DNA of 64,000 bases from Escherichia coli (GTDB lineage: Bacteria; Pseudomonadota; Gammaproteobacteria; Enterobacterales; Enterobacteriaceae), in the NCBI RefSeq assembly GCF_001677475.2, contig NZ_CP015229.1. One strand, written 5' to 3'. The position numbers are program-made. Below are positions 6,001 to 9,000 of this stretch, piece by piece (position 1 is the first letter of the stretch; every line of letters begins with the position of its first letter).

Positions 6001-9000
6001 GTGTTTACATATCGTGCGTAAAGATTATGGTCACGAAATTGCAAACAATGTCGCCCAACGGCTAGTCATCCAGCCGCATCGCCACGGAGAACAACCACAA
6101 AACATGACGCGTCCGATGGCTTCGTCGCGAGAAAGCCAGACGTTTGGCGCATTATTCGACTTTTTACAGCAAAATCTGGCGCAAACGCATACCGTTGCCT
6201 CTCTTGCCGGGCGAGTGAACATGAGCCAACGCACTTTTTTAAGACGTTTTGCCGCCTTAACGGGTATGACACCTGCCCGCTGGCTGCTTAATGAGCGGTT
6301 AATTCGCGTGCAGGATTATCTGCAAAATTCGGCTTTCAGCATCGATAAAATTGCCGAGCTGACGGGGTTTGGCAATTCAGCCTTACTAAGGCATCATTTT
6401 CTACAGCGTTTTTTATTATCTCCTTCGCAATACAGAAAAAACAGCCATCCTCCTTCACATTAATCACCTAATTCAGCCTTCGTTTAGGTTACCTCTGCTA
6501 ATATCTTTCTCATTGAGATGAAAATTAAGGTAAGCGAGGAAACACACCACACCATAAACGGAGGCAAATAATGCTGGGTAATATGAATGTTTTTATGGCC
6601 GTACTGGGAATAATTTTATTTTCTGGTTTTCTGGCCGCGTATTTCAGCCACAAATGGGATGACTAATGAACGGAGATAATCCCTCACCTAACCGGCCCCT
6701 TGTTACAACTGTGTACAAGGGGCCTGATTTTTATGACGGCGAAAAAAACCGCCAGTAAACCGGCGGTGAATGCTTGCATGGATAGATTTGTGTTTTGCTT
6801 TTACGCTAACAGGCATTTTCCTGCACTGATAACGGATCGTTGACACAGTAGCATCAGTTTTCTCAATGAATGTTAAACGGAGCTTAAACTCGGTTAATCA
6901 CGTTTTGTTCGTCAATAAACATACAGCGATTTCTTCCGGTTTGCTTACCCTCATACATTGCCCGGTCCGCTCTTCCAATGACCACATCCAGAGGCTCTTC
7001 AGGAAATGCGCGACTCACACCTGCTGTCACGGTAATGTTGATATGCCCTTCAGAATGTGTGATGGCATGGTTATCGACTAACTGGCAAATTCTGATACCT
7101 GCACGACATGCTTCTTCATCATTAGCCGCTTTGACAATAATGATAAATTCTTCGCCCCCGTAGCGATAAACCGTTTCGTAATCGCGCGTCCAACTGGCTA
7201 AGTAAGTTGCCAGGGTGCGTAATACTACATCGCCGATTAAATGCCCGTAGGTATCATTAACCAATTTAAATCGGTCAATATCCAACAACATTAAATAAAG
7301 ATTCAGAGGCTCAGCGTTGCGTAACTGATGATCAAAGGATTCATCAAGAACCCGACGACCCGGCAATCCCGTCAAAACATCCATATTGCTACGGATCGTC
7401 AGCAAATAAATTTTGTAATCGGTTAATGCCGCAGTAAAAGAAAGCAACCCTTCCTGAAAGGCGTCGAAATGCGCGTCCTGCCAGTGATTTTCAACAATAG
7501 CCAACATTAATTCCCGACCACAGTTATGCATATGTTGATGGGCAGAATCCATTAGCCGAACGTAAGGTAATTCATCGTTATCGAGTGGCCCCAGATGATC
7601 AATCCACCGACCAAACTGGCACAGTCCATAAGAATGGTTATCCGTTATTTCTGGCTTACTGGCATCTCTTGCGACCACGCTGTGAAACATACTCACCAGC
7701 CACTGGTAGTGGGCATCGATAGCCTTATTGAGATTTAACAAGATGGCATCAATTTCCGTTGTCTTCTTGATCATTGCCACTCCTTTTTCACAGTTCCTTG
7801 TGCGCGCTATTCTAACGAGAGAAAAGCAAAATTACGTCAATATTTTCATAGAAATCCGAAGTTATGAGCCATCTCTGAGATAACATTGTGATTTAAAACA
7901 AAATCAGCAGATAAAAAAGTGTTTAATTCTATAAATTAACTCTGCATTATCGCAATTAAAAGGATGACAAATAGCATAACCCAATACCCTAATGGCCCAG
8001 TAGTTCAGGCCATCAGGCTAATTTATTTTTATTTCTGCAAATGAGTGACCCGAACGACGGCCAGCGCGCTTTTCTTATCCAGACTGCCGCTAATGTTGAT
8101 CATCTGGTCCGGCTGAACTTCTCGTCCATCAAAGACTGCCGCAGGAATAACAACATTAATTTCACCGCTCTTATCGCGAAAAACGTAACGGTCCTCTCCT
8201 TTGTGAGAAATCAAATTACCGCGCAGTGAAACCGAAGCGCCATCATGCATGGTTTTTGCGAAATCAACGGTCATTTTTTTTGCATCATCGGTTCCGCGAT
8301 AGCCATCTTCTATTGCATGAGGCGGCGGTGGCGCTGCATCCTGTTTTAATCCGCCCTGGTCATCTGCCAACGCATAAGGCATGACAAGAAAACTTGCTAA
8401 TACAATGGCCTGAAATTTCATACTGACTCCTTAATTGCGTTTGGTTTGACTTATTAAGTCTGGTTGCTATTTTTATAATTGCCAAATAAGAATACTGCCA
8501 ATTGTTATAAGGCATTTAAAATCAGCCAACTAGCTGTCAAATATTCAGAGAATTTAAGTCACTAAAGTTAAGAAGATTGAAGAGTCTTAAACATATTTTC
8601 AGAATAATCGGATTTATATGTTTGAAAATTATTATATTGGACGAGCATACAGAAAAAGCAAATCACCTTTACATATAATAGCGTGGACAAAAAACAGTGA
8701 ACATTAATAAAGATAAAATTGTACAACTCGCAGATACCGACACTATTGAAAACCTGACATCCGCGTTGAGTCAAAGACTTATCGCGGATCAATTACGCTT
8801 AACTACCGCCGAATCATGCACCGGCGGTAAGTTGGCTAGCGCCCTGTGTGCAGCTGAAGATACACCCAAATTTTACGGTGCAGGCTTTGTTACTTTCACC
8901 GATCAGGCAAAGATGAAAATCCTCAGCGTAAGCCAGCAATCTCTTGAACGATATTCTGCGGTGAGTGAGAAAGTGGCAGCAGAAATGGCAACCGGTGCCA

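What the first reader, a model, noticed from the sequence alone, without database searches (positions are those of the whole stretch)
6571..6889. mgtS small protein and mgrR sRNA are present but invisible to the ORF track
A 31-codon ORF (MLGNMNVFMAVLGIILFSGFLAAYFSHKWDD) with its own terminator, and a minus-strand terminator plus PhoP-box-like repeat consistent with the MgrR sRNA, lie between the GlxA-like regulator gene and dgcZ. These are known PhoPQ-regulon elements rather than novel ones.
Basis: partly seen in the sequence, partly recalled or inferred. Interest (0 to 1): 0.3.

Follow-up and report, generated by a model that had tools for sequence, protein, structure and literature searches.

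The report
Known mgtS, mgtT, mgrR magnesium-stress locus

Summary
The ORF at 6571-6666(+) is identical to E. coli K-12 MgtS and hits the MgtS equivalog models in NCBIfam and Pfam. The K-12 mgrR gene maps to 6742-6838(-). It differs by one substitution and one missing U in the tail, and it has the terminator and a PhoP box at 6874-6890. Rfam has no family called MgrR. The region hits RF01407 STnc560 at 275 bits, which is the Salmonella name for the same RNA.

Three things were missed. First, a third annotated small gene, mgtT (6666-6758), starts on the mgtS stop codon, runs through the mgtS terminator hairpin and ends antisense to the mgrR terminator. Second, the run that is both the mgrR U-tail and part of the mgtT codons is A7 here. 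It is A8 in K-12 and in the other Escherichia, Citrobacter and Salmonella loci fetched (A9 in two). This frameshifts MgtT to 30 aa instead of 34 and leaves MgrR at the seven-U minimum reported for Hfq binding. Only 24 of 5,414 complete E. coli genomes share this allele, so it may be an assembly error or a rare slippage allele. Third, the conserved mgtS PhoP-type promoter lies at 6470-6504, outside the reported span.

Already known; low interest.

The parts
6470..6486 (+). PhoP-box-like direct repeat of the mgtS promoter (AATTCA-GCCTT-CGTTTA)
   Evidence: The motif RTTCA-N5-YGTTTA is conserved in position across the Escherichia, Citrobacter and Salmonella loci (alignment). It lies 12 nt upstream of the -10. 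PhoQP-dependence of mgtS is taken from the literature. Its role as the PhoP site is inferred, not tested here.
6499..6504 (+). mgtS -10 hexamer TAATAT; inferred transcription start about 6511-6513
   Evidence: Read directly from the sequence. It is conserved as TAATAT or TACTAT in other genera. A 58-nt mgtS leader described would place the start at about 6513. The start site is inferred.
6560..6564 (+). mgtS ribosome-binding site GGAGG
   Evidence: Read from the sequence. It lies 6 nt before the ATG.
6571..6666 (+). mgtS (yneM) CDS, 31 aa, MLGNMNVFMAVLGIILFSGFLAAYFSHKWDD
   Evidence: identical to K-12 b4599. NCBIfam NF033842 small_MgtS (equivalog) scores 80.6 bits against a cut-off of 35. Pfam PF22865 scores 88.2 bits against 27.
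6666..6758 (+). mgtT CDS, 30 aa here (34 aa in K-12). Its ATG shares an A with the mgtS stop (TAATG). It is frameshifted after codon 27 by the A7 run.
   Evidence: K-12 annotates mgtT as b4775. Pfam PF23498 MgtT scores 74.8 bits but matches only profile positions 1-27 of 34. RefSeq marks the same allele in strain STEFF_1 as 'frameshifted'.
6694..6732 (+). mgtS intrinsic terminator: hairpin 6694-6724 and T-run 6728-6732, inside the mgtT ORF
   Evidence: Fold. The stem arms are conserved across genera while the loop varies. The loop differs from K-12 at 6708-6709.
6742..6748 (.). A7/T7 run shared by mgtT codons (+) and the MgrR 3' U-tail (-). K-12 has 8.
   Evidence: Alignment. Population counts. 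Other species.
6742..6838 (-). mgrR small RNA gene, 97 nt (98 nt in K-12)
   Evidence: Mapped from K-12 b4698. It lies inside the Rfam RF01407 hit 6872..6660(-), 275 bits. The fold shows a 5' stem-loop, a single-stranded middle and a terminator. The same structure is kept in 19 sequences.
6771..6784 (-). MgrR target-pairing region (nt U55-A68, UAUCCAUGCAAGCA)
   Evidence: Numbering and role are from PMC6239178. The sequence is identical to K-12 and invariant in all 19 aligned sequences. Those loci were selected by a 24-nt exact match that covers nt 55-64, so invariance there is by construction.
6748..6767 (-). MgrR terminator stem-loop (ACCGCCGG-TTTA-CTGGCGGT)
   Evidence: Scanner result: 8 pairs, 6 of them G-C, loop of 4.
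6845..6850 (-). mgrR -10 hexamer TACTGT, 6 nt upstream of the annotated 5' end at 6838
   Evidence: Read from the sequence relative to the K-12 mgrR 5' end. Inferred.
6874..6890 (-). PhoP box of mgrR (AGTTTA-AGCTC-CGTTTA). It overlaps the dgcZ stop codon (6884-6886).
   Evidence: exact repeat; 0.09 expected per window. Identical in K-12. PhoP dependence of mgrR is taken from the literature.

Best explanation
This is the E. coli mgtS-mgtT / mgrR locus, a pair of convergent, PhoQP-activated transcription units that act in the low-Mg2+ response. On the plus strand, a PhoP-type promoter (6470-6504) drives a short mRNA. It encodes MgtS, a 31-aa single-helix inner-membrane protein that, according to the literature, binds and stabilises the Mg2+ importer MgtA and also acts on the PitA phosphate symporter. 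It also encodes the overlapping small ORF mgtT. Most transcripts should stop at the hairpin terminator at 6694-6732, which lies inside mgtT. On the minus strand, a PhoP box (6874-6890) and a -10 (6845-6850) drive the 97-nt MgrR. According to the literature, this Hfq-dependent class II sRNA uses its single-stranded nt 55-68 to pair with and repress eptB and ygdQ mRNAs. It ends in an intrinsic terminator whose U-tail is the Hfq proximal-face site. Shown here: sequence identity, family membership, structure, motifs and conservation. Taken from published work on K-12: PhoP dependence, Hfq binding, targets and MgtA stabilisation. Compared with K-12, this copy has a 1-nt shorter A/T run. That shortens the MgrR tail from U8 to U7 and shifts the mgtT frame, giving 30 aa with a different C-terminus. 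Both core elements (the MgtS protein and the MgrR seed, A-rich region and terminator stem) are intact.
For: The MgtS ORF is identical to K-12 b4599. It scores 80.6 bits on NCBIfam equivalog NF033842 and 88.2 bits on Pfam PF22865. Rfam RF01407 STnc560 hits at 275 bits, E = 9e-63, over the full model length. K-12 mgrR aligns with 1 substitution (RNA nt 4, window 6835) and 1 deletion. STnc560 and STnc570 (the yneM ORF) are convergent transcripts in the Salmonella ydeI/ydeE intergenic region, and STnc560 is about 90 nt and 29-fold Hfq-enriched. The 451-nt region is present in 5,416 of 5,426 complete E. coli genomes, where it is annotated mgtS, mgtT and dgcZ. The terminator and PhoP box are found by scans above chance. 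The MgrR fold matches the published architecture of a 5' stem-loop, a single-stranded A-rich and seed region, and a terminator plus U-tail. mgtS, the mgtS promoter motif and mgrR are co-located and conserved in Escherichia, Citrobacter and Salmonella loci. The functions come from papers read here: Aoyama et al., Kwiatkowska et al., Weaver et al. and Vellappan et al..
Against: Nothing argues against the identification. There are four caveats. No expression data exist for this strain. The U-tail is one shorter than in the other 20 loci fetched from other species and strains, and it sits at the published seven-U minimum for stable Hfq binding. mgtT is frameshifted. I could not read the primary papers (Moon & Gottesman 2009, Wang 2017, Yin 2019), so the start sites, the PhoP footprint and the targets rest on secondary citations and on the K-12 annotation.
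Confidence: 0.97

Rival explanations
1. The A7 run is a homopolymer miscall in the assembly, and the real chromosome has the K-12-like A8. In that case mgtT is intact (34 aa), MgrR has U8, and nothing distinguishes this locus from the reference.
For: Only 24 of 5,414 genomes carry the exact A7 allele. They are scattered across unrelated strains, including a C600 (K-12 lineage) assembly, although MG1655 has A8. All other species and strain loci have A8 or A9. An A9 record also exists (H52). Scatter of this kind is typical of homopolymer length errors.
Against: The window is otherwise clean. Against its nearest complete genome, 19.5 kb of alignment contains only 4 indel events, and only one other touches a short homopolymer, in intergenic DNA. 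The flanking genes are intact. STEFF_1 carries the same A7 together with the same terminator-loop variant.
Confidence: 0.4
2. The A7 run is a real slippage allele with functional consequences. MgrR would be a mild hypomorph, with weaker termination or Hfq binding at U7, and MgtT would be altered or inactive.
For: The T-run is 8 in 19 and 9 in 2 of the 21 non-A7 loci (K-12 plus 20 from the genome scan), despite divergence elsewhere in the RNA. [quoted passage not shown] The first U can pair with the A at the base of the stem (pair 76-96). Pfam MgtT matches only positions 1-27 of 34.
Against: Seven U still meets the published minimum. The MgtT C-terminus is not conserved even within Escherichia: E. 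whittamii also ends ...KNRQ at 30 aa, and Citrobacter ORFs range from 9 to 66 aa. About 60 E. coli genomes match only part of this span, and in the one examined (DS566-2) an IS200C truncates mgtT. Deleting or overexpressing K-12 mgtT gave no phenotype.
Confidence: 0.15
3. The small ORF and the hairpins are chance features of an intergenic region and are not genes.
For: Short ORFs are abundant. 61 ORFs of at least 20 aa overlap 5000-8500.
Against: The ORF is an exact match to an experimentally characterised protein and to curated equivalog HMMs. The Rfam hit is 275 bits. The region is conserved across genera.
Confidence: 0.01

Closest known systems
MgtS (YneM), E. coli K-12 b4599; NCBIfam NF033842; Pfam PF22865
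   Same: The 31-aa sequence, the ribosome-binding site, the leader and the promoter are identical from 6470 onward. The convergent arrangement with mgrR is the same.
   Different: The upstream neighbour differs. This strain has a rhodanese gene and ftrA between ydeE and mgtS, and the homology break with K-12 lies just upstream of the promoter repeat, at about 6469.
MgrR sRNA, E. coli K-12 b4698 (= Rfam RF01407 STnc560, Salmonella)
   Same: The 5' stem-loop, the A-rich stretch, the seed at nt 55-68, the terminator stem, the -10 and the PhoP box are identical or conserved.
   Different: RNA nt 4 is C instead of U; C is also the Rfam consensus and is common in Citrobacter and Salmonella. The U-tail is 7 rather than 8. 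The Rfam model is 214 nt and extends beyond the 98-nt RNA on both sides, covering the promoter and the antisense of the mgtS terminator.
MgtT, E. coli K-12 b4775; Pfam PF23498
   Same: The start codon overlaps the mgtS stop in the same way. The first 27 residues are the same except V15T.
   Different: The C-terminus is NRQ* instead of KPPVNRR*, giving 30 aa against 34, because of the A7 run. RefSeq calls this allele a frameshifted pseudogene in STEFF_1.

Membership tests
MgtS (NF033842 / PF22865) | Scores above the curated cut-off of the equivalog HMM over its full length | tested here: met
   80.6 bits against 35, positions 1-31/31. 88.2 bits against 27, positions 1-31/31.
MgtS (NF033842 / PF22865) | About 31 aa with a single hydrophobic helix and the C-terminal FSHKWDD motif | tested here: met
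   Read from the sequence. The hydrophobic core is VFMAVLGIILFSGFLAAYF. It is identical to K-12 and near-invariant in 19 other loci.
MgtS (NF033842 / PF22865) | PhoQP-dependent induction in low Mg2+; stabilises MgtA | not testable with these tools
   Only a conserved PhoP-type repeat and -10 are seen. The function is taken from the literature.
MgrR / Rfam RF01407 STnc560 | Covariance-model score above the gathering threshold | tested here: met
   275 bits against 55, model positions 1-214/214, not truncated.
MgrR / Rfam RF01407 STnc560 | Orthologous position: convergent with mgtS and downstream of dgcZ | tested here: met
   K-12 annotation and alignment.
MgrR / Rfam RF01407 STnc560 | Intact target-pairing region (nt 55-68) and A-rich Hfq distal-face motif | tested here: met
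   Identical to K-12. Region defined in PMC6239178.
MgrR / Rfam RF01407 STnc560 | Intrinsic terminator with a T stretch of seven or more (Hfq-binding sRNA rule) | tested here: met
   The stem has 8 pairs and is followed by T7. This is exactly at the stated minimum. All other loci fetched have T8 or T9.
MgrR / Rfam RF01407 STnc560 | PhoP box upstream; PhoP-dependent transcription; Hfq binding; eptB repression | tested here: inconclusive
   The box is present and identical to K-12. Transcription, Hfq binding and target repression cannot be tested in silico.
MgtT (PF23498) | Full-length match to the 34-residue profile | tested here: not met
   The score of 74.8 bits is above the cut-off, but only profile positions 1-27/34 match. 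The C-terminus is frameshifted. It is best filed as a frameshifted or variant mgtT allele.
MgtT (PF23498) | Start codon overlapping the mgtS stop, same operon | tested here: met
   TAATG at 6664-6668. The arrangement is described.

The most novel reading that the evidence does not exclude
The A7/A8/A9 run shared by the mgtT coding frame and the MgrR U-tail could be a slippage-prone site. Length changes there would at once retune MgrR termination and Hfq loading and switch the MgtT C-terminus, giving heritable variation in the PhoPQ output (eptB-dependent LPS modification) among E. coli lineages.
Probability: 0.04. Interest if true: 0.35.

Novelty: already known. Interest (0 to 1): 0.08.

Why it matters
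It matters mainly for annotation. ORF tracks with a 60-aa floor and no RNA track hide three functional PhoPQ-regulon elements packed into about 420 bp. One base run there serves two genes on opposite strands. The only strain-specific point is the A7 run. If it is real, it puts MgrR at the lower limit of the poly(U) length reported for Hfq binding and changes the MgtT C-terminus. That is a small, directly testable natural variant, not a new system.

Tried and rejected
(1) I looked for an Rfam family named MgrR. None hit; the only family hitting this region at gathering threshold is STnc560. A search for papers holding both 'MgrR' and 'STnc560' found nothing, so I tied the names together through the K-12 annotation and alignment and the Sittka et al. 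table.

I used an exact 24-nt MgrR core pattern on genome contigs instead. This biases the cross-species set towards close relatives and makes the core invariant by construction, so the weak covariation (2 pairs) says little either way.

(3) The primary papers of Moon & Gottesman 2009, Wang 2017 and Yin 2019 are not held.

(4) The sigma-70 scan found no canonical promoter for either gene. This is expected for PhoP-activated promoters that lack a -35, so it is not evidence against them.

(5) I asked whether the window is full of homopolymer errors. It is not: 4 indels in 19.5 kb.

(6) I considered the second GTTTA-N6-GTTTA site at 34935-34950 as another PhoP target. It lies inside a 2806-aa ORF, so it is probably chance.

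(7) NCBIfam has no MgtT model.

Full report
WHAT IS THERE. Reading 6300-7200 and listing ORFs down to 20 aa confirms a 31-codon ORF at 6571..6666(+). A GGAGG lies 6 nt upstream of the ATG. The ORF is not listed at the tool's default 60-aa floor, which explains the remark that it is invisible to the ORF track. Downstream on the plus strand there is a long G+C-rich hairpin (6694-6724) followed by TGATTTTTATG (-24.7 kcal/mol, z = -3.2). On the minus strand the terminator scan calls ACCGCCGG-TTTA-CTGGCGGT followed by a T-run (stem 6767->6748). The exact direct repeat GTTTAAGCTCCGTTTA sits at 6874-6889(-). A 64-kb shuffle expects 0.09 such sites, and no shuffle out of 100 reached the observed 2.

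IDENTITY. The 451 bases at 6450-6900 occur in 5,416 of 5,426 complete E. coli genomes at 95% identity or more, annotated ftrA, mgtS, mgtT and dgcZ. So the window is E. coli chromosome. Over 20 kb, however, it is only 96-98.3% identical to the best complete genome, which points to a divergent or mosaic lineage. In K-12 MG1655 the annotation reads mgtS 1622646-1622741(+), mgtT 1622741-1622845(+), mgrR 1622817-1622914(-), then dgcZ.

The three-way alignment is identical from TAATTCAGCC (6468) through the mgtS stop. It shows only four differences up to dgcZ:
- two adjacent bases in the loop of the mgtS terminator (6708-6709, AC against GT; CAACTG is the reverse complement of K-12's CAGTTG);
- a 1-nt deletion in an A-run (A7 at 6742-6748 against A8);
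- one substitution at 6835.

MgtS scores 80.6 bits on the NCBIfam equivalog NF033842 (cut-off 35) and 88.2 bits on Pfam PF22865.

Rfam has no family called MgrR. The only family that hits here is RF01407 STnc560, full length, at 275 bits against a gathering score of 55. Sittka et al. 2008 list STnc560 as a ~90-nt, 29-fold Hfq-enriched RNA in the Salmonella ydeI/ydeE intergenic region, on the opposite strand to STnc570, which they label 'yneM ORF, ~190 nt'. STnc560 is therefore MgrR under its Salmonella name. The 214-nt Rfam model is wider than the RNA itself. Mapping the K-12 gene gives mgrR = 6742..6838(-), 97 nt.

ANATOMY OF THE RNA. The 97-nt sequence folds into a 5' stem-loop (nt 5-35), a long single-stranded A-rich middle, and the terminator hairpin with a U-tail. 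RNAalifold predicts the same structure for 19 sequences from Escherichia, Citrobacter and Salmonella. Covariation is weak (2 pairs), partly because I retrieved the loci with an exact 24-nt core. Kwiatkowska et al. place the target-pairing region at U55-A68, describe an (ARN)-type motif in the single-stranded centre, and note a 3'-terminal U8. In window numbering U55-A68 is 6784->6771, UAUCCAUGCAAGCA, identical to K-12. The single substitution is RNA nt 4 (C here, U in K-12). It is unpaired, and C is the Rfam consensus. Upstream on the minus strand, TACTGT (6850->6845) lies 6 nt before the annotated 5' end. The PhoP box AGTTTA-AGCTC-CGTTTA (6890->6874) lies 23 nt further up and overlaps the dgcZ stop codon (6884-6886).

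THE mgtS PROMOTER LIES OUTSIDE THE REPORTED SPAN. Aligning the 140 nt upstream of mgtS from 21 loci shows a conserved RTTCA-N5-YGTTTA repeat, followed 12 nt later by TAATAT or TACTAT. In the window these are 6470-6486 and 6499-6504. This is the geometry of a PhoP-activated promoter, which I infer rather than show. Published reporter data show that mgtS-mgtT transcription is PhoQ-dependent. Compared with K-12, this strain carries an extra rhodanese gene and ftrA between ydeE and mgtS. The homology break is at about 6469, immediately upstream of the repeat, so the promoter is preserved.

K-12 annotates a third small gene, mgtT (b4775, 34 aa), whose ATG shares a base with the mgtS stop (TAATG). 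Weaver et al. found it by ribosome profiling and confirmed it by tagging. Vellappan et al. report it as PhoQP-dependent, in an operon with mgtS, not membrane-associated, and without a deletion or overexpression phenotype. In the window the ORF is 6666..6758. It runs straight through the mgtS terminator hairpin and ends antisense to the mgrR terminator. Only transcripts that read through the terminator can therefore encode the complete protein; this last point is an inference.

The A7 run shifts the frame after codon 27. The product is MNGDNPSPNRPLVTTVYKGPDFYDGEKNRQ (30 aa), against ...GEKKPPVNRR (34 aa) in K-12. Pfam PF23498 accordingly matches only profile positions 1-27 of 34, and RefSeq flags the same allele in strain STEFF_1 as frameshifted.

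Across genera only the first ~14 codons are conserved, and they coincide with the conserved left arm of the terminator. ORF lengths range from 9 to 66 aa in Citrobacter and Salmonella. E. whittamii reaches the same ...KNRQ end by a different indel. About 60 E. coli genomes match only part of 6710-6800, and in the one examined, DS566-2, an IS200C sits between the two terminators and truncates mgtT. Constraint on the MgtT C-terminus therefore looks weak.

THE A/T RUN. The same seven bases are mgtT codons on one strand and the MgrR U-tail on the other.
- The exact 91-nt A7 allele occurs in 24 of 5,414 genomes. The next-ranked rows all span 92 bases in the record, meaning A8. At least one A9 record exists.
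- The 24 genomes are unrelated strains and include a C600 assembly, although MG1655 has A8.
- The K-12 locus and the 20 loci from the genome scan have A8 (19) or A9 (2).

U7 is therefore at the limit but within it. The near-invariance of 8 or more fits selection on the RNA tail. I cannot tell whether A7 here is a true slippage allele or a homopolymer miscall. The window is otherwise clean, with 4 indels in 19.5 kb against its nearest genome. On the other hand, the scattered distribution of A7 is what sequencing errors would produce.

MECHANISM. Shown here:
- gene identities;
- intact coding and seed sequences;
- terminators;
- PhoP-type repeats;
- convergent layout, with a 17-nt overlap between the mgtT 3' end and the mgrR 3' end.

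Taken from the literature as read: low Mg2+ activates PhoQ/PhoP, which induces both units. MgtS inserts in the inner membrane and raises MgtA levels, and it also acts on PitA. MgrR binds both faces of Hfq (class II) and represses eptB and ygdQ by base pairing, which alters LPS modification.

VERDICT. Everything here is already known and annotated in K-12. The corrections are the Rfam family name, the omitted mgtT, the promoter outside the span, and the A7 variant. Interest is low.

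Noticed in passing
window 6666-6758: mgtT, a third annotated small gene, overlaps the mgtS stop, the mgtS terminator hairpin and the 3' end of mgrR. Here it is frameshifted to 30 aa by the A7 run.
   Followed up: yes
window 6706-6711: The mgtS terminator loop reads CAACTG where K-12 has CAGTTG. The two are exact reverse complements, which suggests a hairpin-loop inversion or template switch rather than two independent SNPs. The change makes MgtT residue 15 T instead of V.
   Followed up: partly
L024 (E. coli DS566-2) 2713-3558; corresponds to window about 6740: In E. coli DS566-2 an IS200C is inserted between the mgtS and mgrR terminators. It truncates mgtT and leaves mgtS and mgrR intact. 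About 60 complete genomes match only part of window 6710-6800 and may carry the same insertion.
   Followed up: partly
window 4999-6463: A rhodanese-domain gene (4999-5397, minus) and the FtrA/GlxA-type regulator gene (annotated start about 5492, ending 6463, plus) lie between ydeE and mgtS. They are absent from K-12. The junction with K-12-like sequence is at about 6469, directly upstream of the mgtS promoter repeat.
   Followed up: partly
window 27721-29451: A group II intron (Rfam RF02001, RF01998, RF00029) with an ltrA-like reverse transcriptase/maturase ORF at 28053-29270. It is 98.3% identical to copies on E. coli plasmids.
   Followed up: partly
window 26500-39000: A mobile-element-like island follows a molybdopterin oxidoreductase gene (24010-26436). 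It holds an Rfam sRNA-Xcc1 hit (26847-26935), an AntA/P22 antirepressor ORF (26976-27605), a weak Peptidase_C58-like ORF (29951-30454), and a 2806-aa 'large polyvalent protein' ORF (30580-39000, minus) with LPD38, LPD5, LPD1 and MuF_C domains. No complete E. coli genome covers 80% or more of 26500-30500.
   Followed up: partly
window 34935-34950 (-): A second exact GTTTA-N6-GTTTA repeat (GTTTACGACGCGTTTA) lies inside the 2806-aa ORF. It is probably a chance match and not a PhoP site.
   Followed up: partly
window 1-20000: The window is at best 96-98.3% identical to any complete RefSeq E. coli genome over 20 kb. It also lacks a ~5.8-kb PTS/porin/6-phospho-beta-glucosidase block that its nearest relatives carry between marB and eamA.
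   Followed up: no
L006 (SMXE01000224.1, labelled Caldithrix sp. MAG): A contig labelled as a Caldithrix metagenome-assembled genome carries K-12-identical mgtS, mgtT and mgrR. This is almost certainly E. coli contamination of the bin.
   Followed up: no
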